From contig CP068257.2 of assembly GCA_009914755.4 (NCBI GenBank), forward strand, positions 7,136,001-7,200,000: a DNA stretch of 64,000 bases. Reading direction: 5' to 3'. A program made the translations under genes and the position numbers. Each line of letters opens with the position of its first letter. The stretch's first letter is position 1. The notes beneath the pieces were generated by a model, which saw only the letters and a list, made by a program, of their open reading frames with translations, did not search any database and was not told where the DNA came from. The DNA comes from the human T2T-CHM13v2.0 reference genome, Homo sapiens. Below are positions 18,175 to 64,000 of the stretch, in pieces.

Positions 18175-18554
18175 ATGGAACAGAACAGAATGGAATGGAA
18201 TGGAATGCAATAAAATCGAATGTAATGGAAGCGAATGGCATGAATACAATCGAAAGGATTGTGGTGGAGAGGAGGGGAGTGGAGTGGAGTGGAATGGAGT
18301 GGAAGGGAATGGGGTGGAATGGAAGTGAATGGAGTGGAATGGATTGGAATGGAATGGAAAGGAACGGAACAGAATGGAATGGAATGGAATGGAATGCAAT
18401 AAAATCGAATGTAATGGAAGCAAATGGCATGAATACAATCGAAAGGATTGTGGTGGAGAGGAGGGGAGTGGAGTGGAGTGGAATGGAGTGGAAGGGAATG
18501 GGGTGGAATGGAAGTGAATGGAGTGGAATGGAATGGAATGGAGTGGAATTGAAT
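18175..18554 (+). repeat. Near-perfect 190-bp tandem duplication (2 copies) inside the composite domain
   Basis: aatgcaataaaatcgaatgtaatggaagc(g/a)aatggcatgaatacaatcgaaaggattgtggtggagaggaggggagtggagtggagtggaatggagtggaagggaatggggtggaatggaagtgaatggagtggaatgg occurs at ~18,204 and again at ~18,394 with a single visible mismatch. ORF 18135..18581 shows the same 63-aa periodic repeat. Confidence 0.85.
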
Positions 18555-40050: not shown

Positions 40051-40989
40051 GAATGGAATGGAATGGAAAGGAATGCAATGCAATCAACTGGAATGGAATG
40101 GAATGGAAAGGAATGGAATGAAATCATCCCGAATGGAATGGAATGGAATGGGCAGGAATGGAATGGATTTGAATGGAATGGAATCAAATGGAAAGGAATG
40201 GAATGAAATGGAATGGAATGGATTGGAATGGCATGGAATGGAATCAACCCAAGAGGAAAGGAATGGAATGGAATGGAGTTATCTCGAGTGGAATGGAATG
40301 GAATGGAATCAACACGAGTGGAATGGAATGGAATGGAATGCAATGGTATGGAATCAACCCGAGTGGAATAGTATGGAATGGAATGGAATGGAAAGGAACG
40401 GAATGGAATAAAATGGAATGGAATGGAATGGAATCAACCCGAGTGAAATGGAATTGAATAGAATGGAATGTAAACAACCCGAGTGGAATGGAATGGAATG
40501 TAATGGAATGGAGTGGAATGGAATGCAATGGAATCAACCCGAGTGGAATGTAATGTAATGGAATGGAATGGAATGGAATGGAATCAACCCGAGTGGAACG
40601 GAATGGAATGGAAAGCAAAGGAATGGAATGGAATGGAATGGAATGGAATGGAATGGAATGGAATTCATTGGAATCAACTGGAATGGAATGGAATGGAATC
40701 AATCCGGGTTGAATGGAATGCAATGGAATGGAGGCGAATGGAACGCAGTGGAGTGTAATGGAATCAATTGGAATGGACTGAAATGGAATGGAATGGAATG
40801 GAAAGCAATGGAATGGAATGGAATAAAACCGAGTGGAATGCAATGGAATGGAATTGGATGGAATGGAACGGAGTGGAATCAACCCAAGTGGAATGGATTG
40901 GAATGGATTGGAATGGAATGGAAAGGCATCGAATGCAAAGGAATCAACTAGAATGGAATGGAATGGAATGGAATGGAATCAACCTGAGT

Positions 40990-41240
40990 GGAATGGAATG
41001 GAATGGAATGAATGGAATGAAATGAATGGAAACTAATGGAATTGAATGGAAACAACCCGAGTGGAATGGAATGCGATGGAATGCACTGGAATGGAATGGA
41101 ATGGAATGAAATGGAATGGAATTCAACATAATGGAAACAATCCGAGTGGAATGGATTGGAATGGAAAGGACTGAAATGTAATGGAATGGATTGGAATCAA
41201 ACCGATTCCAATGCAGTGGAATGGAATGGAATGGAATGGA
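40990..41240 (+). repeat. Landmark higher-order-repeat module, copy 1
   Basis: AAACTAATGG .. AACAACCCGAGTGG .. ATTCAACATAATGGAAACAATCCGAGTGG .. GGACTGAAATGTAATGG .. AATCAAACCGATTCCAATGCAGTGG. Other copies lie at ~45,235-45,435, 47,290-47,470, 48,700-48,935, 51,215-51,310, 52,965-53,180, 53,530-53,725, 54,075-54,275, 56,055-56,265, 57,640-57,790 and 59,950-60,085. Confidence 0.7.
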
Positions 41241-44200
41241 ATGGAATGGAATGGAAAGCAATTTGATGGGAAAGAATGGAACGAACTGGAATGGAATGGA
41301 ATGGAATATAATTGAATGGAATAGAATGGAATGGTATGGAATCAACCCGAGTGGAGTGGAATGGAATGGAAAGGAAATGAATGGAATGGAATGGAACAGA
41401 ATGGAATTAACTCCAGGTGAATGGAATTCAATGGCATGGAATGGAATGGAATCAACCCGAGTGGAATGGATTGGAATGGAATGCAATGGAATGCAATGGA
41501 ATGGAATGCATTGGAAACAAATGGAATGGAATGGAATGCACTGGAATCAACTGGAATGGAATGGAATGGAATGGAATAGAATGGAATGGAATGGAATGGA
41601 ATGGAATCAAACCAGGTTGAATGGAATGGAATGGAATGGAATAGAGTGGAATGGAATGCAATGGAGTAGAATGGAATGGTATGGAATAGAATGGAGTCAA
41701 AGTGAATGGAATGGAATGGAATGGAATGGAATCAACTGGAATGGAATGGAATGGAATGGAATGTAAAGGAATGGAATGGAATGGAATGGAATGGAATCAA
41801 CCCGAGTGGAGGGGAATGGAATGGAATGGAAATGAATGGAATGGAATAAAATGGAACGGAATGGAATGAACCCGAGTGGAATGGAATTGAATAGAATGTA
41901 ATGGAATGGAAAGGAACGGAATGGAATGGAATGGAATGGAATGGAATGGAATGGAATGGAATGGAATGAACAAAAGTGGAATGGAATGGAATGGAATGGA
42001 TTGGAATGGAATGGAATGGAATCAACCCGAGTGGAATAGAATGGAATGGAATGGAGTGGAATGGAATGGAATTGAATGGAATATAATGGAGTGGAATGGA
42101 AGGGGAAGGAATGGAATGGAATGGAATGGAATGGGATGGAACAGAATGGAAAGGAATTAACCTGAATGGAAGAAATGGAATCGAATGGAATGGAACAGAA
42201 TGGAAGGGAATCAAACCGAGTGGAATGGAATGGAATGGAATGGAAAGGAATGGAATTCAATGGAATGCAATGGAATGGTATGGAATCAACCCGAGTGGAA
42301 TAGTATGGAATGGAATGGAATGGAACGGAATGGAATGGAATAAAATGGAATGGAATGGAATGGAATCAACCCGAGTGAAATGGAATGGAATAGAATGCAA
42401 TGGAAACAACCCGAGTGGAATGGAATTGAATGCAATGGAATGGAGTGGATTTGAATCAACCAGAGTGGAATGGAATGGAATGGAACGCAATGGAATGGAA
42501 TTGAATGGAATGGAATGCATTGGAATCAACTGGAATGGAATGGAATGGAATGGAATGGAATGGAATTGAATGGAATCAATCCGGGTTGAATGGAACGGAA
42601 TGGAATGGAGTCGAAAGGAACGCAATGCATTGGAATGGAATGGAATGGAATGGAATTGACTCAACCAGAATGGAATGGAATGGAATGCAATGGTATGGAA
42701 TGGAAAGGAATGCTATGGAAACAACCCGAGTGGAATGGAAATGAATGGAATGGAATGGAATGGAATGAACCCAAGTGGAATAGAATGGAATGGAAGGCAA
42801 CGGAGTCAACCCGAGTGGAATAGAATGGAAAGGAATGGAATGCAATGGAATGGAATGGAATGGAATGGAATGGAATGGAATGGAATCCACCAGAGTGGAA
42901 TGGAACGGAATGGCATGGAATGGAATGGAATGGAATGGAATCGAACGGAATGGAAAGGAATGGCATGGAATGGAATGGAATGCAATGGAATTGAATGGAA
43001 AGGAATGGAACGGAACAGAATGGAATGGAATAAAATGGAATGAACCTGAATGGAATGGAAGGAATGAACCCGAACGGAAAGGAATTGAATGGAATGGATT
43101 GGAATGGAATGGAATGGAATCAACCTGAGTGGAACGGAATGGAATGGAATAGAGTGGAATGGAATGGAAATGAATGGAATGGAATTGAATAGAATGGAAT
43201 GGAATGGAATGGAATGGAATGGAATTGAATCAACCGGAATGGAATGGAATGGAATGGAATGGAATGGAATGGAATGCAATGGAATCAAACCGAGTAGAAT
43301 GGAATGGAATGGAATGGAAAGGAAGGGAAAGAAATGGAAAGGAATGGAATGGATTGGTATGGAATCAACATTAGTGGAATGGAATGGAATGGAATGGAAT
43401 GGAATGGAATGGAATGGAACATAATGGAATGGAATAAAACGGAATGGAATGCAATGGAATGAACCCGAATGAAATGGATTGGAAGGGAATGGAAAGGAAT
43501 CAAACCGAGTGGAATGGAATTGAATGGAATGGAATGGAATGGAATGGAATGGAATCACCACCAGTGGAATGGAATGGAACGGAATGAAATCAACCCGAGT
43601 GGAATGGAATGGAATGGAATGGAATGGAATGGAATGGAATGGAATAACACCGAGTGTAATGGAAGGGAATGGAATGGATTGGAATACACGCCAGTGGAAT
43701 GGAAAGGAATGGAATGGAACAGAAGGCAATGGAATCAACTGGAATGGAAAGGAATGGAATGGAATGGAATGGAATCAACACGAGTGGAATGGAATGGAAT
43801 GCAAAGGAAAGGAATGGAATGGAATGGAATGGAATGGAATGGAATCAACCCGAGTGGAATGCTATGTAATGGTATGGAATGGAATGGAATAAAATGGATT
43901 GGAAAGGAATGGCATCAACCCCACTGAAACGGAATGGAATGGAATGAAATGGATTCAACCCGAGTGGAATGGACTGGAATGGAAAGCAATGGAATGGAAT
44001 GGAATGGAATGGAATAGAATCAACCCGAGTGGAATGGAAAGGAATGGAATGCAATGGAATGGAATGGAATGCAATGGACTCAACTGGGATGGAATGGAAT
44101 GGATTTTAATACAATGAACGGTATCAACATGAGTGGAATGGAATGGAATGGAATGGAATGGAAAATAATTGAACGGAATGGAAGCAACCTGAGTGGAATG

Positions 44201-47200
44201 GAATGCAAAGGAATTGAAAGGAATGGAATGGAAAGCAATGGAATTCAAAGGAATGTAATAAACTCGAGTGGAACGGAATGGAGTGGAATGGATTGGAATG
44301 GATTGGAATGGAAAGAAATTCAACGGAATGGATTCAACCAGAATGGAATGGAATGGAATGGAATGGAATGCGACGGAATGGATTGGAACGGAATGAAATG
44401 GAATCCACCCGAGTCGAATGGAATGGAATGGAATGGAATGGAATGGAATAGAATCAACTGGAATTGAACTAATGGAATGGAATGGAATGGAATGGAATCA
44501 ACCCGATAGGAATTGAATCGAATCTAATGGAGTTATACCGAGTGGAATGGAATGGAATGGAATCAACCCGAGAGCAATGGAATGGAATGGAATGGAATGG
44601 AATGGAATGGAATGGAATGGAATGGAATTGAATTAACCAGAGAGGCATGGAATGGAATGGAATGGAATGGTATGGAATGGAATAGAATGGAATGGAATAA
44701 ACTCGAGGGGAAAGGAATGGATTGGAAGGGAATGGAATGGAATGGAAAGGAATGGAATGCAATGGAATAGAATGGTATGGAATGGAGTCAACCAGAGAGG
44801 AATGGAATGAAATGGAATTGAATGGAATGGAATGAAATGCAATCGAATGGAGTCGAATGGAATAAACACCTAAGGAATGGAATGGAACGGAATGGATAGG
44901 AGTGGAATGGAATGGAATGGAATGACCTGGAATGGAATGGAATGGAATGAAATCAAACAGAGTGGAATGGAATGGAATGGAATGGAATCAACTGGTATGG
45001 AATGAAATGGAATGGAATGGAATGGAATGCAATGGAATGGAATGGAATGGAATCAACCCGAGTGGAATGCAATGGAATGGAATGGAATGGAGTGGAATGT
45101 AATAAACCCTAGTGGAATGGATTGGAATGGAGTGGAATGGAATGGGACGGCATCGAATGCAATGAAATCAACTAGAATGGAATGGAATGGCATGGAACAG
45201 AATCAACCTGATTAGAATGGAATGGAATGGAATGGAATGAATGGAATGCAATGAATGGAAACTAATGGAATGGAATGAAAACCACCCGAGTGGAATGGAA
45301 TGCAATGGAATGCAATGGAATGGAATGGAATGGAATGGAATTCAACATAATGGAAACAAACCGAGTGGAATGGAATGGAATGGAAAGGACTGAAATGAAA
45401 TGGAATGGATTGGAACCAACCCGTTTCCAATGCAATGGAATGGAATGGACTGGAATGGACTGGACGGGAATGGAATGGGATGGAAAGGAATGGAATTAAA
45501 TGGAATGGAATGGAATGGAATGGAATATAATTGAATGTAATGGAATGGAATGGAATGGAATCAACCCAAGTGGAGTGGAAGGGACTGGAACGGAAATGAA
45601 TGGAATGGAATGGAATGGAATGGAATTAACTTGAGGTGAATGGAATGGAATGGCATGGAATGGAATGGAATCAACCAGAGTGGAATGGAATGGAATGGAA
45701 TGCAATGGAATGGAATGGAATGGAATGCATTGGAATCAACTGGAATGGAATAGAATGGAATTGAATGGAATGCAATGGAATCAACTGGAATGGAATGGAA
45801 TGGAATCAATCCGCATTGAATGGAATGGAATGGAATGGAGTAGAATGGAACACAATGGAGTAGAATGGAATGGAATGGAACGGAATAGAATGGAGTCAAC
45901 ACGAATGGAATGGAATGGAATGGAATGGTATGGAATGGAATGGAATGGAATGGAACGGAATGCTGTTTAATCAACCCGAGTGGAAGGGAAATGAATGGAA
46001 TGGAATGGAATGGAATGGAATGGATTCAACCCAAGTGGAATGGAATGAAATGGAATGCAACGGAATCAAACCGAGGGGTATGGAATGGAAAAGAATTGAA
46101 TGGATGGTATGGAATGGAAAGGAATGGAATGGAATCAACCTAAGAGGAATAGAATGGTATGGAATGGAATGGAATGGAATGGAATCAACCCGAGTGTAAT
46201 GGAATTGAAAGGAATGGAATGCATTTGGATGCAATGGTATCAAATGGAATGGAATGGAATGGAATGGATTGGAATAGAATGGAATGGATTGGAATGGAAT
46301 GGAATGGTATGGAATCAAACCGAGTGGAATGGTATGGAATATAATGGAATGGAACGGAATGGACAGGAATAAAATGGAAAGGAATGGAATAGAATCAACC
46401 CGACGGAAATAGAATGGAATGGAATGGAATGTAATAAAACCGATTGGTATAGAGTTGAATGGAATGGAATGGAATGGAATGGAATCAACCCGAGTGGAAT
46501 GGAGTGGAATGGAATGGAATGGAATGGAATGGAATGGAATGGAATGGAATGGAATGGAATGGAATGGAATGGAATCAACTGGAATAGAATGGAATGGAAT
46601 GGAATGGAATGGAATGGAAAGGAATGGAATGGAATCATCGTGAATGGAATGGAATGGTATGGGCAGGAACGGAATGGATTTGAATGGAATGGAATCAAAT
46701 GGAAAGGAATGGAATGAAATGGAATGGAATGGAATGGAATGCCATGGAATGGAATGGAATTAACCCAAGAGGAAAGGAATGGAATGGAATGGAGTTAACT
46801 CGAGTGGAATGGAATGGAATGGAATCAACACGATTGGAATGGAATGGAATGGAATGGAATGGAATGGAATTAACCCGAGTGACATGGGATGGAATGGAAT
46901 GGAATGGTGCAGAATGCAATAGAATGCAATGGAATCAACTCGAGGCGAAAGGAATGGAATGGAAAGTAATGAAATGGAATGGATAGGAATGGAATGCAAT
47001 GGAATGCAATGATATGGAATGGAGTCAAACCGAGAGGAATGTAATGGGAAGGAATTGAATGGAATGGTATGGAATGCAATGGAATGGAGTTGAATGTAAC
47101 AAACCCCAGAGGAATGGAATGGAATGGCATGGAATGGAATGGTATGGATAGGAATGGAATGGAATGGAATGGAATGGAATGCACTGGAATGGAACGGAAT

Positions 47201-50200
47201 GGAATGAAATCAAAAAGAGTGGAATGGAATGGAATGGAATAGAATTTAGTGGAATGGATTCAACGGGAATGGAATGAAATGGAATGGAATGGAATGAAAT
47301 GGAATGGAATGGAAACAAACCAACTGGAATGGAATGCAATGGAATGCAATGGAATGCAATGGAATTGAATTCAACGTAATGGAAACAAACCTAGTGGAAC
47401 GGAATGGAATGGAAAGGACTGAAATATAACGGAATGGATTGAAATCAAACCGATTCCAATGCAACGGAATGGAAAGGAATGGAATGGAATGGAAGGGAAT
47501 GGAATGGAATGGAATGGAATGGAACATAATTGAATGGAATGGAAGGGAATGGAATGGAATGGAATGGAATCAACCTGAGTGGAGTGGAATGGAATGGAAT
47601 GGAAAAGAAACGAAAAGAATAAAATGGAACGGAATGGAATGAACCCTAGTGAAATGGAGTTGAATGGAATGGAAAGGAACGGAATGGAATGGAATGGAAT
47701 GGAATGGAATGGAACAGAAGGGAAAGGAATGGAATGAACAAAAGTGGAATGGATTGGAATGGAATGGATTGGAATGGAATGGAATGGAATCAACCCGAGT
47801 GGAATAGAATGGAATGGAATGGAGTGGAATGGAATGGAATTGAATGGAATAGAATGTAGTGGAATGGAAGGGGAAGGAATTGAATGGAATGGAATGGAAT
47901 AGGATGGAACAGAATGGAAAGGAATCAACCTGAATGGAAAGAAATTGAATGGAATGGAATTGAACGGAATGCAATGGAATGAAACCCAGTGGAATGGAAT
48001 GGAATGGAATGGAAAGGAATGGAATTGAATGGAATGGAATGGAATGGAATGGTATGGAATCAACCCGAGTGGAAGAGTATGGAATGGATTGGAATGGAAA
48101 GGAACGGAATGGAATAAAATGGAATGGAATGGAATGGAATCAACCCGAGTGAAATGGAATTGAATAGAATGGAATGTAAACAACCCGAGTGGAATGGAAT
48201 GGAATGGAACGGAATGCAGTGGAATGGAATGGAATGGAATCAACCCGAGTGGAATGTAATGGAATGGAATGGAATGGAATGGAATGGAATCAACCCGAGT
48301 GGAATGGAATGGAATGGAAAGCAATATAATGGAATGGAATGGAATGGAATGGAATGGAATGGAATGGAATGGAATGGAATGGAATTCATTGGAATCAACT
48401 GGAATGGAATGGAATGGAATCAATCCGGGTTGAATGGAATGGAATGGAATAGAGTCGAATGGAACGCAGTGGAGTGGAATGGAATCAACTGGAATGGACT
48501 GAAAAGGAATGGAATTTAACGGAATCAACCCGAGTGGAATGCAATGGAATGGAATTGGATGGAATGGAATGGAGTGGAATCAACCCAAGTGGAATGGATT
48601 GGAATGGAGTGGAATGGATTGGAATGGCATGGAATGCAATGTAATCAACTACAATGGAATGGAATGGAATGGAAAGGAATCAACCTGAGTGGAATGCAGT
48701 GGAATGGAATGAATGGAAAGGAATGCAATGGAAAGAAATGGAATTTAAAGGAAACAACACGAGTGGAATGGAATGCAATGAATTGCAATGGAATGGAATG
48801 GAATGGAATGGAATGGAATGGAATGGAATGGAATTCAACGTAATGGAAACAAACCAAGTGAAAAGGAATGGAATGGAAAGGACTGGAAAGTAATGGAAAG
48901 GATTGGAATCAAACCGATTACAATGCAATGCAATGGAATTGAGTGGAATGGAATGGAAGGGAATGGAATGGAATGGAAAGAAACGGAATGGAATGTAAAG
49001 AAATGGAATTTAATTTAATGGAATGGAATGGAATGGAATGGAATGGCATGGAATGGAATGGAATGGCATGGAATGGAATGGAATGGAAAGGAATTAACCT
49101 GAGTGGAGTGGAATTGAATGGCATGGAAATGAATGGAATGGCATGGAATGGATGGGAACGGAAAGGAATGAACCCGAGTGGAATGGAATGGAATGGAATG
49201 GAATGCAATGGAATGGAATGGAATGGAATGGAACAGAATGGAATGGAATGGAATGGAATGAACACGAGTAGACTGGAATGGAATGGAATGGAATGGATTG
49301 GAATGAAATGGAATGGAGTCAACCCGAGTGGAATAGATTGCAATGGAATGGAGTGGTATGGAAAGGAATTTAATGGAATGGAATGGAGTGGAAAGGAATG
49401 GAATTGAATTGAATCGAAAGGAATGGAGTGTAGTGGAATGGGATGGAATGGAATGCAAAGGAATCAACCCGAATGGAATGGAATGGAATGGAATGCAATG
49501 GAATGGAATGGAAAGGAATGGAATGGAATGGAATGGAATGGAATGGAACAGTTTGGAATCAACCCGAGTGGATTAGTATGGAATGCAATGGAACGGAATG
49601 GAATGGAATAAAATAGAATGGAATCGAATAGAATCAACCCGAGTGAAATGGAATGGAATGGAATGGAATGGAATCATCCCGAGTGGAATGGAGCGGAATG
49701 GAATGCAATGGAATGGAATGGAATGGAAGGCATTGGAATGGAATGGAATGGAATGGAATGGAATGGAATGGAATGGAATGGAATGGAATCAATCCGGGTG
49801 GAATGGAAAGGAATGGAATGGAGTGGAATGGAATGGAACGGAATCAACCCGAATGGAATGGAATGGAATGGAATGGAATGGATCGGAATGGAATGCTATA
49901 GAAACAACCCGAATGTATTGGCAATGAATGGAACGGAATGAAATGGAATGGAATCATCCCAAGTGGAATGGAATGGAATGGAATGCAACGGAATCAACCC
50001 GAGTGGAATGGAAAGCAAAGGAATGGAATGGAATGGAATGGAATGGAAAGGAATGGAATGAAATCAACCCAAGTGGAATGGAATGGAATGGAATGGAATG
50101 GAACCAACCAGAGTAGAATGGAATGGAATGGAATGGAACGGAATGGAATGGGATGGAATGGAAAGGAATGGAATGGAATGGAATGGAAAGGAATCAACCC

Positions 50201-50434
50201 GAGAGGAATGGAATGGAATTGAATGGAATGGAATGGAATGGAATGGAATGGAATGGAAAGCAGTGGCATGGAATGGAATTTAATGGAATCAGCCCGAGTG
50301 GAATGGAATAGAATGGAATGCAATGGAATAGAATGGAAAGGAATGGAACGGAACAAAATGAAATGGAATAAAATGGAATGAACCCGAATGAAATGGAAGT
50401 AATGAACCCGAATGGAATGGAATTGAATGGAATG

Positions 50435-50554
50435 GATTGTAATGGAATGGAATTGAATGGAATCAACCAGAATGGAATGGAATGGAATGGAATGGATTGT
50501 AATGGAATGGAATTGAATGGAATCAACCAGAATGGAATGGAATGGAATGGAATG
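50435..50554 (+). repeat. Perfect 60-bp tandem duplication
   Basis: aatggattgtaatggaatggaattgaatggaatcaaccagaatggaatggaatggaatgg occurs twice back to back. ORF 50378..50692 shows a 20-aa repeat GMDCNGMELNGINQNGMEWN x2. Confidence 0.85.
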
Positions 50555-52949
50555 GATTGGAATGGAATGGAATGGAATGGAGTGAAATGGAATGGAATCA
50601 ACCCGAGTGGAATGGAATGGAATGGAAGGGAATGGAATGGAAGGGAAAGGAATGGAAAGGAATGGAATGGATTGGTATGGCATCAACATTAGCAGAATGG
50701 AATGGAATGGAATGGAAAAGAATGGAATGGAATAAAATGGAAGGGAATGCAATGGAATCAACCCGAATGAAATGGAGTGGAATGGAATGGAATGGAATCA
50801 ACCTGAGTGGAATGGAATTGAATGGAATGGAATGGAATGGAAACAACCCGAGTGGAATGGAATGGAATGGAATGGAATCAACCCGAGTGGAGTGGAATGG
50901 AATGAAACAGAATGGAATGGAATCAACCCCAGTTGAATGGAATGGAATGCAATGGAATGTAATGGAACAGTATGGAATGGAATAGAATGGAATGGAATCA
51001 ACTCGAGGGGAAAGGAATGGAATGGAAAGGAATGGAATGGAATTGATTGGAATGGAATGCAATGGAATGGAATGGTATGGAATGGAGTCAAACCGAGAGG
51101 AATGTAATTGAATGGAATTGAATGGAATGGAATGCAATGCAATGGAATGGAATGGAAACAACCCGAGTGAAATGGAATGCAATGGAGTGCAATGGAATGG
51201 AATGGAATGGAATTCAACGTAATGAAATCAAACCGAGTGGAATGGAATGCAATAGAAACGACTGAAATGTAATGGAATGGATTGGAATCAACCCGATTCC
51301 AATGCAACGGAGTGGAATGGAATGGAAAGGAATGGAATGGAATGGAATCAACCCGAGTGGAGTGTAATGGAATGGAATGGAAATGAATGGAATGGAATGG
51401 AATGGAATGGAACGGAATGGAATGAACCCGAGTGGAATGGAATGTAATGGAATGGAAAGGAACGGAATGGAATGGAATGGTATGGAATGGAATGAACACA
51501 AGTGGAATGGAGTGGAATGGAATGAAATTGAATGGAATGGAATGGAGTGGAATGGAAGGGGAAGGAATTGAATGGAAAGGAATGGAATGGAATGGGATGG
51601 GATGGAATAGAATGGAAAGGAATCAACCCGAATGAAATGGAGTGGAGTGGAATGGAATGGAAACAACCCGAGTGGAATGGAATGGAATGGAAAGGAATGG
51701 AATGGAAGGGAAAGGAATGTAATACAATGGTATGGAACAGAGTCAACCCGAGTGGAATGGAATGGAATGGAATGGATTGGAATGGAATGGAATGGAATGC
51801 AATGGAATGGAAAGAATTAACACGAATGGAATGCATTGGATTGGAATGGAAAGGAATGGAATGGAATGGAATGGAATGGAATGGAATGCAATGGAATGGA
51901 ATCAACACTAGTGGAATGATATGGAATGGAACGGAATGGAATGGAATGGAAAGGAATGGAATGGTATGGAATCAACCCAAGGGGAATGGAATGGACTGTA
52001 AAGGAATGGAACGGAATGGAATGGAATAAAATGTATTGGAATGGTATGGAACCAACCCGAGTGAAGTGGAATGGAATGGAATGTAATGGAATCAACGGGA
52101 ATGGAATGAAAAGGAATGGAATGGAATTCAATGTAATGGAATGGAATTCAATGGAATGGAAACAAATGGAAAGGAATGGAATGGAATGGAATGGAATGGA
52201 ATGGAATGGAATGGATAGGAATGGAATGGAATCAAACTGAGAGGAATGGATTGCAATGGAATGGAATTATCCCGAGTGGAATGGAATGGAATGGAATCAA
52301 CCCGAGTGGAATGGAAGGGAATGGAATGCAATGGAATGGAACAGAATAGAATTAGCCCGAGTGGCATGGAAGGGAATGGAATGGAATGGAATGGAATGGA
52401 ATGGAATGGAATCAACCCGATTGGAATGGAATGGAATGGAATGGAACGGTATGGAATGGAATAGAATGGAATGGAATCAACTCGAGTGGAAAGGAATGGA
52501 ATGGAAAGGAATGGAACGGAATAGAAAGGAATGGAATGCAGTGGAATGCAATGGCATGGAATGGATTCAACATGAGTGGAGTGGAATGGAATGGAATGGA
52601 ATTGAATGGAATGGAATGCAATGGAATGGAGTGGAATGGAATAAACACCAGTGGAATTGAATGGAATGGTATGGAATGGAATGGACAGGAATGGAATGGA
52701 ATGGAATGGAATGGAATGAACAGGAATGGATTGGAATCGAATGAAATCCACCCGAGTGAAATGGAATGGGTTGGGACGGGATGGAATGGAATGGAATGGA
52801 ATGGAATGGAATTAACCCGAGTGGCATGGAATGGAATGGAATGGAATAAACCCTAGTGGAATCGATTGGAATGGAGTGGAATGGAATGGAATGGCATGGA
52901 ATGCAATGGAATCAACTAGAATGGAAAGGAACGAAATCAACCTCAGTGG

Positions 52950-54290
52950 AATGGAATGGAATGGAATTTAATGAATGGAATGGAATAGAATGGAAACTAA
53001 TAGAAAGGAAAGAAAAGAACCCGAGTGGAATGGAATGCAATGGAATGCAGTGCAATGGAATGGAATGGAACGGAATTCAACGTAATGGAAACAAACCGAG
53101 TGGAATGGAATGGAATGGAATGGAAAGGATTGGAATGTAATGGAATGGACTGGAATAAACCTGATTCAAATGCAACGGAATGGAATGGAATGGAATGGAA
53201 TGGAATGAAATGGAAGGGAAAGAAATGGAATGGAAATGAATGGAATGGAATGGTATGGAATGGAATAGAATGGAATGGAATCAACACGAGTGGAAAGGAA
53301 TGGAATGGAAAGCAATGTAATGGAAAGGAAAGGAATGGAATGCAATGGTATGGAATGGTATCAACCCGAGTGGAATGGAATGGAATGTAATGGAAGAGAA
53401 TGGAATGGAAAACAGGAATGGAATGGAATCGAATGAAATCAACCGGAGTGGAATAGAGAGGAATGGAATGGAATGGAATGGAACGGAATGGAATGGATTC
53501 AACCTGAGTGGAATGGAATGGAATGGAATGGAATGAATGGAATGGAATGGAAGGGAAACTAATGGAAAGTAAAGGAAAGAACCCGAGTGGAATGGAATGC
53601 AATGCAATATAATGGAATGGAAAGGAATTCAAAGTAATGGAAACAAACCGAGTGGAATGGAATGGAATGGAAAGGATTGGAATGTAATGGAATGGATTGA
53701 AATCAACCCGATTCCAATGTAACGGAATGGAATGGAATGGAATGGAATGGAAAACAGGAATGGAATAGAAACGAATGAAATCAACCCAAATGGAATAGAA
53801 TGGAATGGAATGGAAAGGAATGGAATGGAATGGAAACAACTGGAATGGATTGGAATGCAATGCAATGGAATGGAATGGAATCAACCCGAGTGGAATGCAA
53901 TGGAATAGAACTGAATGGAATGGAATGGAATGGAATCAAACTAAGTGGAATGGATTGGAATGGAGTGGAATGGAATGGAACGGCATGGAGTGCAATGTAA
54001 TCAACTAGAATGGAATGGAATGGAATGGAATGGAATGGAACGGAGTCAACCTGAGTTTAATGGAGTGGAATGGAATGAATGGAAAGGGATGGAATGGAAA
54101 CTAATGGAAAGGAAAGAAAACAACCCGAGTGGAATGGAATGCAATGAATTGCAATGGAATAGAACGGAATGGAATGGAATTCAATGTAATGCAATCAAAC
54201 CGAGTGTAATGGAATGGAATGGAAAGGACTGGAAAGTAATGGAATGGATTGGAATCAAACCTATTACAATGCAACGGAATGGAATTGAAT
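52950..54290 (+). repeat. Local ~550-bp tandem triplication carrying three copies of a landmark module
   Basis: The module (gaatgaatgg..aaactaatgg..aagaaccc/aacaacccgagtggaatggaatgcaatg..attcaa(c/a/t)gtaatgg(a/c)aa(a/t)caaaccgagtgg..ggattggaatgtaatgg..aaccgattccaatg(c/t)aacgg) sits at ~52,965-53,180, ~53,530-53,725 and ~54,075-54,275. The two intervening spacers also match each other (both contain ggaaaacaggaatggaat..gaatgaaatcaacc). Confidence 0.6.
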
Positions 54291-57200
54291 GGAATGGAAT
54301 GGAAGGGAATGGAATGGAACCTAAAGGAATGGAACGAACTGGAATGGAATGTAAAGAAATTGAATTGAATTGAATTGAATTGAATGGAATGGAATGGAAT
54401 GGAATGGAATTAACCTGAGTGGAGTGGAATTGAATGGAATGGAAATGAATGGAATGGAATGGAATGGAAAGGAACGGAAAGGAATGAACCCGAGTGGAAT
54501 GGAATGGAATGGAATGGAATGGAATGGAATGAAAAGGAATGGACTGGAATGGAATGGAATGGAATGGAATGGAATGGAATGGAATGGAACAGAGTGGAAT
54601 GGAATGGAATGGAATGGAATGGAATGCAATGGAATGGAATGGAACGGAGTGGAATGGAATGGAATGGAATGGAACGGAGTGGAATGGAATGGAATGGAAT
54701 GGAATGGAATGGAATGGAATGGATTGGAATGAAATGGAATGGAATCAACCTGAGTGGAATAGAGTGGAATGGAATGGATTGGTATGGAAAGGAATTGAAT
54801 GAAATGGAATGGAATGGAGTGGAATGGAATGGAATTGAATTGAATCGAAGGGAATGGAGTGTAATGGAATGAGATGGAATGGAATGGAAAGGAGTCAACC
54901 CAAATGGAATGGAATGGAATGGAATGCAATGGAATGGAATGGAATCAACCGTGTGGAATGGAATGGAAAGGAATGGAATGGAATGGAAAGGAACGGAATG
55001 GAATGGTATGGAATCAACCCGAGTGGAATCGTATGGAATGCAATGGAAAGGAATGGAGTGGAATAAAGTGGAATGGAATGGAATGGAATCAACCCGAGTG
55101 AAATGGAACCGAATGGAATCAACACGAGTGAAATGGAATGGAGTGGAATGAAATGGAATCAACCAGAGTGGAATGGAATGGAATGGAATGCAATGGAATG
55201 GAATGGAATGGAATGGAAGGCATTGGAATCAACTGGAATGGAATGGAATGGAATGGAATCAATCCGGGTGGAATGGAATGGAATGGAATGGAATGGAGTG
55301 GAATGGAATGGAATGGAACGGAATGGAATCAATCCTGGTAGAATGGAATGGAATGGAATGGAGTGGAATGCTATGGAACGGAATCAACCCGAATGGAATG
55401 GAATGGAATGGAATGGAATGGGATGGAATGGAATGCAATGGAATGGAATGGATTTAACCCGATTGGAATGGAATGGAATGGAATGGAATGGAATGGAATG
55501 GAATGGACTGGAATGGAATCAACGCGAGTGGAATGGAGTGGAATGGAATGCAATGGAATGGAATGGAATGGAAGGCATTGGAATCAACTGGAATGGAATG
55601 GAATGGGACGGAATCAATCCGGGTGGAATGGAATGGAATAGAATGGAGTGGAATAGAATGGAACGGAATCAACCCAAATGAAATGGAATGGAAAGGAATG
55701 GAATGGAATGGAATGGAATGGAATGGAATGGAATGGAATGGATTGGAATGGAATGGAATGGAATGCAATGGAATGGAATGGAATGGAATTAACACGAGTG
55801 AAATAGAATGGAATGAAATCAACTGGAATGGACTGAAATGTAATGGAATGGAATGGAATCAACCCGAGTGTAATGCAATGGAATGGAATGGAATGGAATG
55901 GAATGGAATGGAGTCAACCCAAGTGGAATGGATTGGAATGGAGTGGAATGGAATGGAACGGCATGGAATGCAAAGGAATCAACTGCAATGGAATGCAAAG
56001 GAATGGAATGGAATTGAATGGAATGGAATGGAATCAACCTGAGTTTAAGGGAGTGGAATGGAATGAATGGAAAGGAACGGAGTGGAAACTAATGGAATGG
56101 AAAGAAAACAACCCGAGTGGAATGGAATGCAATGAATTGCAATGGAATGGAATGGAATGCAATGGAATTCAACGTAATGTAAACAAACCGAGAGTAACGG
56201 AATGGAATGGAAAGACAGGAAAGTAATGGAATGGATTGGAACCAAACTGATTACAATGCAACGGAATGAAATTTAATGGAAGGGAAAGGAAGGGAATGGA
56301 ATGGAATGGAAAGGAATGGAATGAACTGGAATGGAATGTAAAGAAATGGAATTTAATTGAATGGAATGGAATGGAATGGAATGGAATTAACCAGAGTGGC
56401 GTGGAATTGAATGGAATGGAAATGAACGGAATGGAATGGAATGGAAAGGAACGCAAAGGAATGGATTGGAATGAAATGGAATGGAATCATCTCTGGTGGA
56501 ATCGAGTGGAATGGAATGGATTGGTATGGAAAGGAATCGAATGGAATGGAATGGAGGGGAAGGGAGTGGAATTGAATTGAATCGAATGGAATGGAGTGTA
56601 ATGGAATGGGAAGGAATGGAATGTAAAGGAATGCAATGCAATGGAATGGAATGGAATCAACCGTGTGGAATGGAATGGAATGGAATGGACAGGAATGGAA
56701 TGGAATGGAATGGAATGGAATGGAATGGTATGGAATCAACCCGATTGGAATAGTATGGAATGCAATGGAATGGAATGGAAAGGAATAAAATGGAATGGAA
56801 TGGAATGGAATCAACCCGAGTAAAATGGAATGGAATGGAATAGAATGGAATCAACCCAAGTGGAATGGAATGGAATGGAATGGAAAGAATGGAATGGAAT
56901 GGAATGGAATGCAATGGAATGGAATGGAATCAGATGGAATGGAATGGAGACAAGTGCAATGGAATGGAATGGATTGGAATTTAATGTAATGGAATCAACA
57001 CGAGTGGAATAGAATGGAATGGAATCGAGTGGAATGGAATGGAATTGAATGGCATAGAATGGAGTGGAATGGAAGGGAAAGGAAATAAATGGAATGGAAT
57101 GGAATGGAATGGAATGGAATGGAATGGAATGGAATGGAATGGGATGGAATGGGATGGAATAGAATGGAAAGAATCAACCAGAAAGGAAAGGAGTGGAAGG

Positions 57201-60200
57201 GAAAGAATGGAACGGAATGGAATGGAATGGAATGTTATAGAAGGGAATGGAATCAACTCGAGGGGAAAGGAATGGAATGGAAAGGAATGGAATGGAATGG
57301 ATTGGAATGGATTGCAATGAAATGCAATGGTATGGAATGGAGTCAACCCAAGAGCAATGTAATGGAATGGAATAGAATGGAATGGAATGGAATGCAATGG
57401 AATTGAGTTGAATGGAATAAACCCCAGAGGAATGGAATGGAATGACATGGAATGGAATGGTATGGATAGGAATGGAATGGAATGGAATGGAATAAACTGG
57501 AATGGAATGGAATGGAATGAAATCAAAAAAAGTGGACTGGAATGGAATGGAATGGAATTTAATGGAATGGAATCAACTGGAATGGAATGAAATGGAATGG
57601 AATGAAATGGAATGGAATGGAATGGAATGGAAACAACCCAAGTGGAATGGAATGCAATGGAATGCAATGGAATGCAATGGAATCGAATTCAACGTAATGT
57701 AAACAAACCGAGTGGAACGCAATGGAATGGAAAGGACTGAAATGTAATGGAAGTGATTGGAATCAAACCGATACCAATGCAACGGAATGGAAAGGAATGG
57801 TATCGAAAGGAAGGGAATGGAATGGAATGGAAAGGAATGGAATGAACTGGAAAGGAATGGAATGGAATGGAATATAATGGAATGGAATGGAATGGAATCA
57901 ACCCGAATGGAATGGAGTGGAATGGAATGAAATGGAATGGAATGCAATGGCAGGTATCAGAAACAACTGGAATGGAATGGAATGGAATGGAATGGAGTTG
58001 AATGGAAGGGAATGGAATGGAGTAAACCCGAATGGAATGGAATGGAATGGAAAGGAATGGAATGGATTTGAATGGAATGGAATGGAATGGAGTGGAATGG
58101 AATAGAATGGAATGGATTGGAATGGAATGGAATGGAATCATCCCGAGAGGAATGGAATGGAATGGAATGGAGTTTTCCCGAGTGGAATGGAATGGAATGG
58201 AATCAACCCGAATGAAATGGTATGGAATGGAATAGAATGGAATGGAATCAACTCGAGGGGAAAGGAGTGGATTGGAATGGAATTGAATGGAATGGAATAT
58301 AATTGAATGGAATGGAATGAAATGGAATCAACCCAAGTGGAGTGGAATGCAATGGAACGGAAATGAGTGGAATGGAATTGAACGAAATGGAATTAACTCG
58401 AGGTGAATGGAATGGAATGGCATGGAATCGAATGGAATCAACCCGAGAGGAATGGAATGGAATGGAAAGCAATGGAATGAAACGGAAAGGTATGCAATGG
58501 AATCAACTGGAATGGAATGGAATGGAATGGAATGGAATGGAATGCATTGGAATCAACTGGAATGGAATGGAATCAACTGGAATGGAATGGAATGGAATCA
58601 ACTGGAATGGATTGAAATGGAATGGAATGGAATGCATTGGAATGGAATGGAAACAACCGAAGTGGAATGGAATGCAATGGAACGGAAATGAATGGAATGG
58701 AATGGAACGGAATGGAGTTAACTCGAGGTGAATGGAATGGAATGGCATGGAATGGAATGGAATCAAACCGAGTGGAATGGAATGGAATGGAAAGCAATGG
58801 AATGGAATGGAATGGAATGCATTGGAATCAACAGGAATGGAATGGAATGGAATGGAATGGAATGCATTGGAATCAACTGGAATGGAATGGAATGGAATCA
58901 ATCCGGTTGAATGGAGTGGAATGGAATGGAGTGGAATGGAACGCAATGGAGTGGAATGGAATTGAATGGAATAGAATGGAGTCAAACCGAATGGAAGGGA
59001 ATGGAATGGTATGGAATGGAATATAATGGAATGGAATAGAAAGGAATGCTATGGAATCAACCCGAGTAGCATGGAAATGAATGGAATGGAATGGAATGCA
59101 TTCAACCCAAGAGGAATGGAATGGAATGGAATGAAACGGAATCAACCATAGTGGAATGGAATGTAAAGGAATGAAATGGAATCCACCCAAGAGGAATGGA
59201 ATGGAACGGAATGGAATGGAAGGAAAGGAATGAAATGGAATGGAATCAACCCGAGTGGAATGGAATGGAATGGAAAGGAAAGGAATGGAATGGAATGGAA
59301 TGGAATGGAATGGAAGGGTATGGAATCAAACCGAGTGGAATGGTATGGAATGGAATGGAATGGAACGGAATGGACTGGAATAAAATGGAATGGAATGGAA
59401 TGGAATCAACCCGACGGAAATGGAATGGAATGTAATGGAATGGAATAAAACCGAGTGGAATAGAATGGAATGGAATGGAATGGTATGGAATGGAATCAAC
59501 CCGAGTGGAATGGAATGGAATGGAATGGAATGGAATAAACTGGAGTGGAATGGAATTGAATGGCACGGAATGGAATGGAATTAACCCGAGTGGCATGGAA
59601 TGGAATGGTATAGAATGTAATAGAATGGAATGGAATCAACTCGAGTGGAAAGGAATGGAATGAAAAGGAATGGAATGGAATGGAATGGATAGGAATGGAA
59701 TGCATTGGAAAGCAATGGTATGGAATGGATTCAACCCGAGAGGAATGTAATGGAATGGAATGGAATGGAATGCAATGGAATGGAGTTGCATGAAATAAAC
59801 CCCATAGGAATGGAATGGAATGGAACGGCATGGAATGGAATGGTATGGATAGGAATGGATAGGAATGGAATGGAATGGAATGGAATGGAATGGAATGGAA
59901 TGGAATGCAATGGAATGGAATGCAATGGAATGGAATGGAAAAAGCTGAAGTGGAATGGAATGCAATGGAATGCAATGGAATGAAATTCAACGTAATGGAA
60001 ACAAACAGAGTGGAATGGAATGGAATGGAAAGGACTGAAATGTAATGGAAGTGATTGGAATCAAACCGATTCCATTGCAAAGGAATGGAAAGTAATGGAA
60101 TATGATACAAGGGAGTGGAATGGAATGGAAAGGAATGGAATTAACTGGAATGGAATGGAATGGAATGGAATGTAATATAATTGAATGGAATGGAATGGAA

Positions 60201-63200: not shown

Positions 63201-64000
63201 GAATGGAATGGAATGGAAAGGAATGGAATGCAATGGAATGGAATAGAATCAACCCGAGTGGAATGGATAGGAATGGAGTGGAATGGAATGGAACGGCATC
63301 CAATACAATGGAATCAACTAGAATGGAATGGAATGGAATGGAATGGAACGGAATCAACCTGAGTGGAATGGAATGGAATGCAGTGGAATGAATGGAATGC
63401 AATGGAATTGAACTAATGGAATGGAATTGAAACAACCCGAGTGGATTGGAATGCAATGTAATGGAATGGAATAGAATGGAATGGAATCAATCCGGGTTGA
63501 ATGGAATGGAATGGAATGGAGTGGAATAGAATGGAATGGAGTGGAATGGAATGGAATGGAACGGAATATACCCGAATATAATGTAATGGAATGGAAAGAA
63601 ATGGAATCAAGAAGAATGGAATGCAATGGATTGGAATGGAATGAAATGGAATGGAATGGAACGGAATAAACACGAGTGGAATGGAATGGAGTGGAATGGA
63701 ATGGAATGGAAAGGAATGGAATCAACCCTAGTGGAATGCTATGGAATGGAATAGAATGGAATGGAATGGAATGGAATAAAATGGTTTGGAATGGAATGGC
63801 ATCAACCCCAGTGAAATGGAATGGAATGGAATGGAATGGAACCAACCCGAGTGGAATGGAATGGAATGCAATGGAACGGAATGGAATCCACCCAAGTGGA
63901 ATGGAATGCAATGGAATGGAACGGAATGGAATGGAATGGAATGGAATGGAACCAACTGGAATGAAACGAATGGAATGGAATGGAAATGAATGGAATGGAA

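What the first reader, a model, noticed from the sequence alone, without database searches (positions are those of the whole stretch)
40990..60085. Recurring landmark module defines an irregular higher-order repeat in the canonical satellite III domain
A ~100-250 bp module containing ATTCAACGTAATGGAAACAAACCGAGTGG .. GGACTGAAATGTAATGG .. AATCAAACCGATTCCAATGCAACGG recurs 11 times. Its ATTCAACGTAATGG core lies at ~41,121, 45,341, 47,379, 48,836, 51,221, 53,086, 53,627, 54,179, 56,168, 57,687 and 59,986. Spacings run ~4.2, 2.0, 1.5, 2.4, 1.9, 0.54, 0.55, 2.0, 1.5 and 2.3 kb. The module has two upstream contexts. Type A is preceded by AAACTAATGG..AACAACCCGAGTGGAATGGAATGCAATGAATTGCAATGG. Type B is preceded by AACTCGAGGGGAAAGG..GGAGTCAAACCGAGAGGAATGTAATGG..AAACCCCAGAGGAATGG..GGTATGGATAGGAATGG (46,920-47,470, 57,250-57,790, 59,640-60,085; degenerate copies at 44,700-45,440 and 50,990-51,310). 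The module contains a locally inverted pentamer (CCGATTCCAATG on the G-rich strand). A second landmark, GGTATGGAATCAACCCGAGTGGAATAGTATGGAATGG..AATAAAATGGAATGG..CAACCCGAGTGAAATGG, recurs at ~40,340, 42,270, 46,300, 48,050, 49,550, 55,000, 56,730, 59,330 and 60,670 (spacings ~1.3-2.6 kb, with larger gaps). Together these suggest an underlying unit of ~1.5-2.4 kb (compare the 1.8-kb class described for D15Z1) with frequent deletion or duplication variants. The exact unit cannot be fixed by eye.
Basis: partly seen in the sequence, partly recalled or inferred. Interest (0 to 1): 0.55.

Follow-up and report, generated by a model that had tools for sequence, protein, structure and literature searches.

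The report
Irregular nested repeat in satellite III
The recurring landmark motifs are real and mark an old, worn repeat unit of about 1.4-2 kb inside a GGAAT-type satellite III array, an irregular layering already described for these human satellites, so the finding is correct but ordinary.

Summary
None is expected by chance, and the two landmarks alternate along the sequence.

The flanks align too. About 57% of 40-64 kb lies in self-matches stronger than any seen in order-shuffled controls, at 87-97% identity against a background of about 77%. The blocks keep a cyclic order relative to one 1,938-bp reference unit (40321-42258).

There is no fixed period. An NTRprism-style spectrum has no peak above 3%. 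Unit lengths run 1.1-1.9 kb, with gaps of 3-5.5 kb. Length changes are mostly multiples of 5 bp. Small tandem duplications (325 bp, 552 bp x3) and collinear duplications of several kb (offsets about 7.7, 11.3 and 12.6 kb) lie on top of the unit.

The domain carries the CAACCCGAGT 10-mer, which starts abruptly at 40,310 and points to the HSat3B type. It has no KpnI site and no HSat3A5 marker, so the D15Z1 comparison fails.

This is best read as a diverged, poorly homogenised nested tandem repeat made by in-register unequal exchange. That is a known feature of HSat3 arrays. Interest is low.

The parts
40310..64000 (+). Satellite III domain with the G-rich GGAAT strand on +. It carries the CAACCCGAGT 10-mer and holds all the landmark modules. 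It runs to the end of the window.
   Evidence: TRF reports a period of 5 with consensus AATGG. CAACCCGAGT with up to 1 mismatch has 157 hits in the window: one at 2382, and the other 156 from 40310 onward at 7-18 per 2 kb.
40321..42258 (+). Reference unit U1 (1,938 bp), ordered L2 (40345), L3 (40697), L1 (41121), then the next L2 (42277).
   Evidence: 40327-40517 matches 42259-42449 at 95%. The other units map onto it in cyclic order.
41041..41231 (+). L1 module copy 1 (anchor 41121), type A upstream context.
45260..45450 (+). L1 module copy 2 (anchor 45340). Type A next to the module, with type B motifs further upstream at 44698 and 45104.
47289..47479 (+). L1 module copy 3 (anchor 47369), type B context from 46928.
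   Evidence: 46928-47570 matches 57246-57888 at 91%.
48753..48943 (+). L1 module copy 4 (anchor 48833), type A.
   Evidence: 40829-41122 matches 48530-48824 at 92%.
51132..51322 (+). L1 module copy 5 (anchor 51212), degenerate type B context from 50982.
   Evidence: 50982-51148 matches 57237-57403 at 93%.
52875..54530 (+). Three tandem copies of about 552 bp, each with an L1 module (anchors 53075, 53627, 54179). This is an old local triplication.
   Evidence: The spacing is 552 and 552 bp. The three-way alignment has a clearly shared core of about 300 bp and 87% mean column identity.
56087..56277 (+). L1 module copy 9 (anchor 56167), type A.
   Evidence: 54012-54400 matches 56000-56387 at 92%.
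57607..57797 (+). L1 module copy 10 (anchor 57687), type B.
59905..60095 (+). L1 module copy 11 (anchor 59985), type B motifs at 59637 and 59796.
41187..41215 (+). Inverted repeat inside the L1 module: TGGATTGGAATC, spacer AAACC, GATTCCAATGCA.
   Evidence: The 12-nt arms are 92% complementary with a 5-nt spacer. Across the 11 copies, 8-11 of 12 pairs are kept, and every change breaks a pair with none compensated. Five of the seven ATTCC pentamers in 38-64 kb lie in these modules.
40345..40450 (+). L2 landmark copy 1. The other copies start at 42277, 46306, 48051, 49550, 55005, 56727, 59317 and 60677, with a degenerate tenth at about 63717.
40697..40716 (+). It also occurs with up to 1 mismatch at 42574, 48418, 49787, 55257, 55612, 61229 and 63485. 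In five units it lies 240-370 bp after L2.
44650..51213 (+). Collinear block of several kb, duplicated at 57205-63229 (offset about 12.0-12.7 kb).
   Evidence: The chain scores 3609, against a best shuffle chain of 1713. Strong individual matches are 45546-46012 to 58638-59098 (91%), 46245-46570 to 59256-59581 (92%), 47662-48240 to 60303-60861 (89%) and 50854-51213 to 62871-63229 (88%).
57205..63229 (+). Partner copy of the collinear block at 44650-51213.
40319..43890 (+). Segment ordered L2-L1-L2 plus a landmark-free stretch. It is collinear with 48027-51468 and with 59291-62911.
   Evidence: The chains score 2259 and 2268, above the shuffle maximum of 1713. 40321-40664 matches 48027-48375 at 96%.
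58313..58893 (+). Local tandem duplication of about 325 bp.
   Evidence: 58313-58573 matches 58638-58893 at 92%. The spectrum has a peak at 320-330 bp.
61486..62118 (+). Local tandem duplication of about 325-330 bp.
   Evidence: 61486-61798 matches 61816-62118 at 94.6%.

Best explanation
The region from 40.3 to 64 kb is a stretch of pentameric satellite III (GGAAT)n of the type that carries CAACCCGAGT. It retains the worn imprint of a longer repeat unit, which the T2T centromere papers call a nested tandem repeat.

A block of about 1.4-1.9 kb of already diverged pentamers, in the order L2, L3, L1 and back to L2, was amplified as a unit. That step is inferred. The copies then drifted apart to 87-97% identity. 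Three processes reshaped them. In-register insertions and deletions within the pentamer tracts changed their lengths. Small tandem duplications arose (325 bp, and 552 bp three times). Blocks several units long were duplicated at offsets of about 7.7, 11.3 and 12.6 kb.

The likely mechanism is unequal exchange, gene conversion and replication slippage between misaligned but in-register repeats. This is the standard model for satellite arrays and is inferred, not shown here.

The landmarks are neutral, inherited sequence variants that serve as markers of descent. They are not functional elements. Homogenisation here has been weak or ancient, so no fixed period survives.
For: - Recurrence is far above chance.
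- Homology extends beyond the anchors. There are 26 self-matches of 300 bits or more (maximum 866), against none in 7 token or block shuffles (maximum 283). Six chains exceed the best shuffle chain. Coverage is 57% by single significant matches and about 80% with chains.
- In an anchored rare-12-mer test on a tight diagonal, signal is above the null from -400 to +400 around L1, and in all bins but one from -800 to +600 around L2. Together these spans nearly tile the distance between landmarks.
- Cyclic order relative to U1 is kept along the whole domain.
- Offset changes between successive blocks of a chain are multiples of 5 bp in 74 of 126 cases, where 20% is expected. A further 42 are within 1 bp of a multiple of 5. 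This fits in-register exchange or slippage.
- No period dominates. Weak peaks lie at 300-355, 552, about 1100, 1464-1500, 1700-1742, 1950-1988, 2298 and 4063-4219 bp, each under 3% of the spectrum.
- Independent copies in 11 metagenome contigs carry the same module. Where a contig is long enough it shows the same order: L011 has L2, L3, L1 with an L2-to-L1 distance of 767 bp, against 776 bp in the window. L006 has L2, type B context, L1, L2. L010 has the hybrid type B then type A context seen at 44.7-45.4 kb.
- The literature describes multi-kb nested tandem repeats in HSat2 and HSat3. [quoted passage not shown] Complete cloned HSat3 units of 0.6-1.75 kb on autosomes are listed in Table S1 of PMC4022460.
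Against: - No tool here could place the window in a reference genome, so the chromosome, the subfamily and even the species are not established.
- Many collinear blocks score 150-285 bits, which is within the noise of the shuffles when each is taken alone. The exact unit boundaries, and the super-unit, are therefore not fixed.
- Only about three copies of any candidate super-unit fit in the window.
- The mechanism (unequal exchange and slippage) is inferred from the pattern, not observed.
- Three stretches map poorly to the reference unit (about 43-44.6 kb, 51.5-53.8 kb and 62-63 kb).
Confidence: 0.85

Rival explanations
1. It is a true higher-order repeat of the D15Z1 (chromosome 15, 1.8-kb KpnI) class, with occasional deletion and duplication variants.
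For: Some L2-to-L2 spacings are close to 1.8 kb: 1932, 1745 and 1722 bp. There are weak spectrum peaks at 1700-1742 and 1950-1988 bp.
Against: - There is no KpnI site in the 64 kb.
- The commonest HSat3A5-specific 24-mer has no match at up to 1 mismatch.
- D15Z1 belongs to the HSat3A clade. This domain carries the 10-mer that points to the HSat3B clade.
- No period dominates.
- Copies are only 87-97% identical.
Confidence: 0.03
2. The landmarks are chance recurrences of short variant motifs in a low-complexity pentamer array, with no shared ancestry of the flanks.
For: Any two in-phase stretches of this array align at about 77% over kilobases. Many weak blocks of 150-285 bits also appear in shuffled controls.
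Against: - No matches, or about 0.5, are expected for the anchors.
- The 25-nt distal motif occurs only at the 11 modules.
- Flanks share rare 12-mers above the null for about 400 bp on each side.
- There are 26 matches of 300 bits or more, against none in the shuffles.
- The order is conserved in external contigs.
Confidence: 0.01
3. The pattern is a patchwork of dispersed duplications several kb long within the array, not the remains of a short tandem unit. On this view the 1.5-2 kb spacing is a by-product.
For: The best chain is a 6-kb block duplicated about 12.6 kb away. Rare k-mer offsets pile up at 7.6-7.8 kb and 12.6-13.0 kb more than at 1.5-2 kb. 40.3-43.9 kb is collinear with 48.0-51.5 kb and with 59.3-62.9 kb.
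Against: - Adjacent units are also homologous. 40327-40517 matches 42259-42449 at 95%, and 54012-54400 matches 56000-56387 at 92%.
- L1 and L2 alternate throughout, with cyclic phase progression. Copying large blocks alone does not produce this.
- The two views are compatible: a short unit first, and larger blocks copied later.
Confidence: 0.1
4. The L1 module, with its 12-nt inverted repeat, is a functional or recombination-prone element. It might be a protein-binding site or a hairpin that stalls replication, and it might drive the local duplications.
For: The module is the best-conserved part of the unit, with the core at 86% against flanks at about 76% in the all-copy alignment. It sits in the only local triplication. 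The inverted repeat is unusual on this strand: 5 of the 7 ATTCC pentamers in 38-64 kb lie in modules.
Against: - Hairpin pairing decays from 11 to 8 of 12 pairs, and every change is one-sided with none compensated.
- Nothing in 38-64 kb reaches any Rfam family's gathering threshold.
- The higher core identity is partly a selection effect, because the copies were found by that core.
- The arms are not spaced as a heat-shock element (read from the sequence).
Confidence: 0.03
5. The repeats are an assembly artefact, with collapsed or falsely duplicated satellite reads.
For: Satellite arrays are hard to assemble. The provenance of the window is unknown.
Against: Copies differ by 3-13% and by many insertions and deletions, whereas false duplications would be nearly identical. 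Independent contigs from other projects carry related but distinct copies.
Confidence: 0.02

Closest known systems
Nested tandem repeats (NTRs) of human satellites 2 and 3, as defined in the T2T-CHM13 centromere study (10.1101/2021.07.12.452052). The HSat3B3 array on chr20, with variable NTR length, is one example.
   Same: Both have a pentamer base repeat with a longer unit of kb scale layered on it. In both, the unit length varies along the array. Both sit next to a different HSat3 subfamily in one 'super-array': here an HSat3A-like stretch at 1-38 kb beside the CAACCCGAGT domain.
   Different: The window covers only 24 kb, so I cannot say whether a regular core exists elsewhere in the same array. 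Copies here are unusually diverged at 87-97%. The subfamily is not assigned.
Cloned acrocentric HSat3B2 units: pTRS-63 (1404 bp, chr14) and HUMASAT3 (1483 bp, chr13/14/21), from Table S1 of PMC4022460.
   Same: They are HSat3B-clade satellite with a complete repeat unit of about 1.4-1.5 kb. This is close to several unit lengths here (1360, 1464-1499 bp).
   Different: The commonest HSat3B2 24-mer has no exact match and only one match at 1 mismatch. Membership is therefore untested.
D15Z1 / HSat3A5 (1.8 or 3.6 kb KpnI repeat, chr15)
   Same: It is a pentameric satellite III with a unit of kb scale.
   Different: It belongs to a different clade (HSat3A). The window has no KpnI sites, no marker 24-mer and no regular period.
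DYZ1 / HSat3A6 (3.56-kb unit, Yq12)
   Same: It is a nested unit built from diverged pentamers.
   Different: DYZ1 is a regular repeat giving a ring-like read topology. Its marker 24-mer is absent here, there is no HaeIII site in the domain, and there is no peak near 3.6 kb.
Alpha-satellite higher-order repeats
   Same: Both have a hierarchical organisation, with structural variants produced by unequal exchange.
   Different: Alpha-satellite higher-order repeats are made of discrete 171-bp monomers. Here the base unit is 5 bp, the longer unit has no discrete monomers, and the copies show no fixed period.

Membership tests
Human satellite III (HSat3), pentameric | Base repeat (GGAAT)n / (ATTCC)n with strong strand asymmetry | tested here: met
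   TRF reports period 5, consensus AATGG and 5,187 copies over 38089-64000. GC skew is +0.62 to +0.69 across 38-64 kb. There are 2,668 GGAAT against 7 ATTCC.
Human satellite III (HSat3), pentameric | Interspersed 10-mer CAACCCGA(A/G)T, the complement of A(T/C)TCGGGTTG (the classical description, recalled from my own knowledge of Prosser et al. 1986) | tested here: met
   CAACCCGAGT has 67 exact copies in 38-64 kb and none in 0-38 kb. With up to 1 mismatch there are 156 copies from 40310 onward, at a median spacing of 95 bp.
HSat3B clade (Altemose 2014) | Carries the sequence of the HSat3 oligonucleotide probe of Tagarro et al., which the paper says is found only in HSat3B. That the probe contains ACTCGGGTTG is my recollection, not checked here. 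| tested here: inconclusive
   The motif is present on the complementary strand throughout 40.3-64 kb. The probe sequence itself was not available to me.
HSat3B clade (Altemose 2014) | [quoted passage not shown] | tested here: inconclusive
   Only the single commonest 24-mer of each subfamily could be tested. None of the B1-B5 markers matches exactly. At 1 mismatch, 38-64 kb has 5 matches to the B1 marker, 6 to B3 and 1 to B2. The held copy of the full list is cut off within the HSat2 entries.
D15Z1 / HSat3A5 | Subfamily-specific 24-mer TATTCTATATGATTCCATTCCATT | tested here: not met
   There are no matches at up to 1 mismatch on either strand in the whole window.
D15Z1 / HSat3A5 | KpnI sites spaced 1.8 or 3.6 kb apart | tested here: not met
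   GGTACC does not occur in the 64 kb.
DYZ1 / HSat3A6 | 3.56-kb unit (HaeIII) and its marker 24-mer | tested here: not met
   There are no marker matches at up to 1 mismatch, no GGCC in 40.3-64 kb and no peak near 3.6 kb.
Nested tandem repeat (NTR) / higher-order unit | Copies of a long unit resemble each other more than the background similarity of the base repeat | tested here: met
   Specific blocks are 87-97% identical (length-weighted mean 91%), against a background of about 75-77%. They exceed the shuffle controls.
Nested tandem repeat (NTR) / higher-order unit | Blocks recur head to tail in the same cyclic order | tested here: met
   The phase map against U1 wraps 11 times along 40.3-63.9 kb. 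L2, L3 and L1 keep the same order. External contigs L011, L006 and L010 show the same order.
Nested tandem repeat (NTR) / higher-order unit | A predominant, measurable period | tested here: not met
   An NTRprism-style spectrum (k = 6-12) has no peak at 300 bp or longer that holds more than 3% of the signal. The strongest peaks are local ones at 300-355 bp. Landmark spacings run from 0.55 to 5.5 kb.

The most novel reading that the evidence does not exclude
The domain could be a three-level nested repeat: a 5-bp repeat inside units of about 1.5-1.9 kb of at least two kinds (type A and type B), inside a super-unit of about 7.7-12.6 kb. In addition, the palindrome-bearing L1 module could be a preferred breakpoint for the exchanges that created the local and large duplications. 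If both were true, the landmark code would give a readable history of how one satellite III array grew at its border with a different subfamily.
Probability: 0.07. Interest if true: 0.3.

Novelty: already known. Interest (0 to 1): 0.12.

Why it matters
The finding matters mainly as a correct description. It shows that this part of the window is an old, weakly homogenised edge or flank of a satellite III array, and not a young regular array.

The landmark motifs L1, L2 and L3, and the EcoRI site carried by 10 of the 11 L1 modules, could serve as local markers. They could help with read mapping, with checking an assembly, or with comparing haplotypes.

It does not open a new biological question. 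Irregular nested repeats of variable length are already documented for HSat3 arrays in complete human assemblies.

Tried and rejected
- TRF with periods up to 500 bp returned only the 5-bp repeat over 38-64 kb and cannot see the long unit.
- Ordinary blastn scoring (+1/-3) is swamped by 77% in-phase alignments of 2-3 kb at any offset. I switched to +1/-4 scoring with shuffle controls.
- An exact-offset k-mer spectrum and a binned offset histogram gave no single period.
- Subfamily assignment from the published 24-mers failed. Table 1 gives only one 24-mer per subfamily and none matched exactly in 38-64 kb. The held copy of the full list is cut off after the HSat2A2 entries.
- The scan of bacterial and archaeal genomes for the module found nothing.
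- The metagenome scan gave 11 contigs. None is the same locus, and the best match is 93-96%. No contig is long enough to show a period; L005 (3.7 kb) has only an 83.5% self-match at about 1.73 kb.
- The Rfam search of 38-64 kb gave no match.
- I considered and rejected a heat-shock-element reading of the inverted pentamer, because the GAA and TTC are 9 nt apart, not 2.
- My first attempt to score the hairpin used fuzzy-match start positions and was out of register. It was redone.
- I did not use the protein tools. The long open reading frames in GGAAT repeats are mechanical.

Full report
**What the window is**

The whole 64 kb is a GGAAT-type pentameric satellite with the G-rich strand on + (composition; TRF period 5 over 38-64 kb). 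It has three domains.
- 1-24 kb is GGAGT-rich with GC 0.43-0.45. It holds two exact HSat3A4 marker 24-mers and one exact HSat3A2 marker.
- 24-38 kb is rich in TCGAATGGAAT and ACTCGAATGG motifs.
- The third domain is defined by the CAACCCGAGT 10-mer. This motif is absent before 40,310, apart from one near-match at 2382, and then occurs 7-18 times per 2 kb to the end of the window.

**Checking the observation**

L1 (ATTCAACGTAATGG, up to 2 mismatches) lies at 41121, 45340, 47369, 48833, 51212, 53075, 53627, 54179, 56167, 57687 and 59985. The distal 25-mer of the module occurs exactly 11 times in the window, always about 72 nt downstream of an L1 anchor.

L2 lies at the nine stated sites. Its first companion motif follows in register in all nine copies, and the second in seven of the nine. 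A tenth, degenerate copy lies at about 63717.

L1 and L2 alternate along the sequence, apart from one run of four L1 copies.

I found a third landmark, L3 (AATCAATCCGGGTTGAATGG). It has eight copies at up to 1 mismatch, and in five units it lies 240-370 bp after L2.

The two upstream contexts are real.
- Type A copies (41121, 45340, 48833, 54179, 56167) are 83-88% identical over -400 to -80.
- Type B copies 47369 and 57687 are 92% identical.
- Eleven random in-phase control windows average 75%, with a maximum of 80%.

**Do the segments between anchors align?**

The difficulty is that any two in-phase stretches of the array align at about 77% for kilobases. I therefore used a scoring scheme that penalises that background. 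I compared the results with shuffles that keep all the motifs but destroy their order.
- The real sequence has 26 self-matches of 300 bits or more (maximum 866). Seven shuffles have none (maximum 283).
- Chaining collinear matches gives six chains above the best shuffle chain of 1713. The top chain scores 3609.
- Individually significant matches cover 57% of 40-64 kb. Adding the significant chains raises this to about 80%. The length-weighted identity is 91%, with a range of 87-97%.
- Around the anchors, shared rare 12-mers on a tight diagonal exceed the null from -400 to +400 for L1. For L2 they exceed it in all bins but one from -800 to +600.

The segments between anchors therefore do align, and the refutation condition is not met.

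**Is there a unit?**

I took 40321-42258 (1,938 bp) as the reference unit, because 40327-40517 repeats at 42259-42449 with 95% identity. The rest of the domain maps onto it in cyclic order.
- 47338-49717 reads through phases 770 to 1938 to 0 to 935, then 1573 to 1938 to 200.
- 59951-60861 reads through phases 766 to 916, then 1386 to 1938 to 200.
- In both cases a piece of 450-640 bp is missing relative to the reference.

Phase 0 recurs at about 40321, 42259, 46850, 48030, 49490, 54985, 56665, 58180, 59265, 60640 and 63650. This gives spacings of 1.1-1.9 kb plus three long gaps of 4.6, 5.5 and 3.0 kb.

Offset changes between successive blocks of a chain are multiples of 5 bp in 74 of 126 cases, and within 1 bp of a multiple in 42 more. 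Length variation therefore arises mostly in the pentamer register.

**Is there a fixed period?**

No. An NTRprism-style spectrum, built as described in the T2T supplement with k = 6-12, has no peak at 300 bp or longer holding more than 3% of the signal. The weak peaks lie at 300-355, 552, about 1100, 1464-1500, 1700-1742, 1950-1988, 2298 and 4063-4219 bp.

The short peaks come from local tandem duplications:
- 58313-58573 and 58638-58893, at 92%;
- 61486-61798 and 61816-62118, at 94.6%;
- three copies of about 552 bp, each with an L1 module, at 52.9-54.5 kb.

**Larger structure**

Collinearity extends over several units.
- 44650-51213 matches 57205-63229.
- 40319-43890 matches both 48027-51468 and 59291-62911. 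Each of these three consists of L2-L1-L2 followed by a landmark-free stretch.

These relationships explain the pile-ups of rare k-mer offsets at 7.6-7.8 and 12.6-13.0 kb. They may reflect a super-unit, or simply later block duplications. With about three copies in the window I cannot tell which. Many links in the chains are individually at noise level.

**The 'inverted pentamer'**

It is the right arm of a 12-nt inverted repeat, TGGATTGGAATC-AAACC-GATTCCAATGCA. Five of the seven ATTCC pentamers in 38-64 kb lie in L1 modules. Across the 11 copies, 8-11 of the 12 pairs survive, and every change is one-sided with none compensated. So there is no sign that pairing is maintained.

One possible origin is a short template-switch (fold-back) mutation that turned GATTGGAATG-like sequence into its complement. 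This is my inference only.

**Copies elsewhere**

A scan of public metagenome contigs for the L1 core found 11 contigs. The scan of bacterial and archaeal genomes found none.
- Seven contigs (L001, L002, L003, L005, L007, L008, L009) share stretches that are mostly 92-99.6% identical to one another, but they are only 82-88% identical to the window. They therefore come from a different, probably more abundant, array that carries the same module.
- L011 is 93% identical to 39193-41256 and 96% identical to 48027-49106.
- Where the contigs are long enough, they show the same landmark order. L011 has L2, L3, L1 with an L2-to-L1 distance of 767 bp, against 776 bp in the window. L006 has L2, type B context, L1, L2. 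L010 has the hybrid type B plus type A context seen at 44.7-45.4 kb.

The block order is therefore inherited within this satellite family, not peculiar to the window.

**Comparison with what is known**

The T2T centromere study names such layered units in HSat2 and HSat3 'nested tandem repeats'. [quoted passage not shown] The study also reports wide variation in the predominant unit length across an HSat3B3 array that abuts an HSat3A1 array.

Altemose et al. 2014 list complete cloned HSat3 units of 584-1748 bp on autosomes. These include pTRS-63 (1404 bp) and HUMASAT3 (1483 bp) in HSat3B2. D15Z1 is listed as HSat3A5 with a 1.8 or 3.6 kb unit. [quoted passage not shown]

The DYZ1 and 9q12 (HSat3B5) markers are also absent at up to 1 mismatch.

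The subfamily remains unassigned. The closest near-matches, at 1 mismatch, are to the HSat3B1 and HSat3B3 markers.

**Mechanism**

Shown here:
- recurrence of the landmarks;
- homology of the flanks;
- cyclic order of the blocks;
- length changes in the pentamer register;
- local duplications and duplications of several kb;
- divergence of 3-13% between copies.

Inferred: the unit was amplified and later reshaped by unequal exchange, gene conversion or slippage between misaligned in-register repeats, with little recent homogenisation. On this view the landmarks are neutral markers of descent.

Nothing in 38-64 kb reaches any Rfam family's gathering threshold, and nothing suggests a function specific to the module.

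**Verdict**

The phenomenon is already known for HSat3 arrays, so interest is low.

Noticed in passing
window 38089-40310: The CAACCCGAGT 10-mer is absent up to 40,310 and then abundant. So 38.1-40.3 kb is a transitional stretch, not part of the 'canonical' domain. Even so, 39996-40391 recurs at 46507-46907 (89-93%), and the metagenome contig L011 spans the junction (93% to 39193-41256).
   Followed up: partly
window 40697, 42574, 48418, 63485 (exact); 49787, 55257, 55612, 61229 (1 mismatch): AATCAATCCGGGTTGAATGG contains the near-palindrome CAATCCGGGTTG, which looks like the satellite III 10-mer fused to its own reverse complement. It works as a third landmark between L2 and L1.
   Followed up: partly
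window 41119, 45338, 47367, 48831, 51210, 53073, 53625, 54177, 56165, 57685: Ten of the 11 L1 modules carry an EcoRI site (GAATTC) at the anchor. An EcoRI digest of this domain would give an irregular set of fragments of 0.3-3.4 kb, not a ladder. There are no KpnI sites in the window and no HaeIII sites in 40.3-64 kb.
   Followed up: yes
window 63410-63505: A type A upstream context (AACTAATGG..AAACAACCCGAGTGG..ATGCAATG) is present without the L1 core. It is followed directly by an L3 motif. This is a unit variant that has lost the module.
   Followed up: no
window 1-24000: This is a different satellite III type. It is GGAGT-rich (656 GGAGT), with GC 0.43-0.45 and GC skew about 0.8. It has two exact HSat3A4 marker 24-mers and one HSat3A2 marker. 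There are local 189-bp tandem copies (18101-18548 at 93%; 20355-20761). There are duplications at offsets of about 2.03, 5.8 and 6.27 kb, for example 14424-14836 to 20693-21110 at 90%.
   Followed up: no
window 24000-38000: This third type is rich in TCGAATGGAAT and GGACT variants. It has a local repeat of 510-515 bp (25682-26241 to 26192-26752 at 88%) and a repeat of about 430 bp (33904-34377 to 34334-34811 at 87%).
   Followed up: no
loci L001, L002, L003, L005, L007, L008, L009: These seven metagenome contigs come from different projects. They share stretches mostly 92-99.6% identical to one another and carry the L1 module, but are only 82-88% identical to the window. A more abundant sister array with the same module therefore exists elsewhere. 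The source organism and sample were not checked.
   Followed up: partly
window 40300-64000: Common variants of the 10-mer are CAACCTGAG, CAACCCAAG, CAACACGAG and CAACCAGAG, with four copies each among the tokens. The first two are the changes expected from CpG decay.
   Followed up: no
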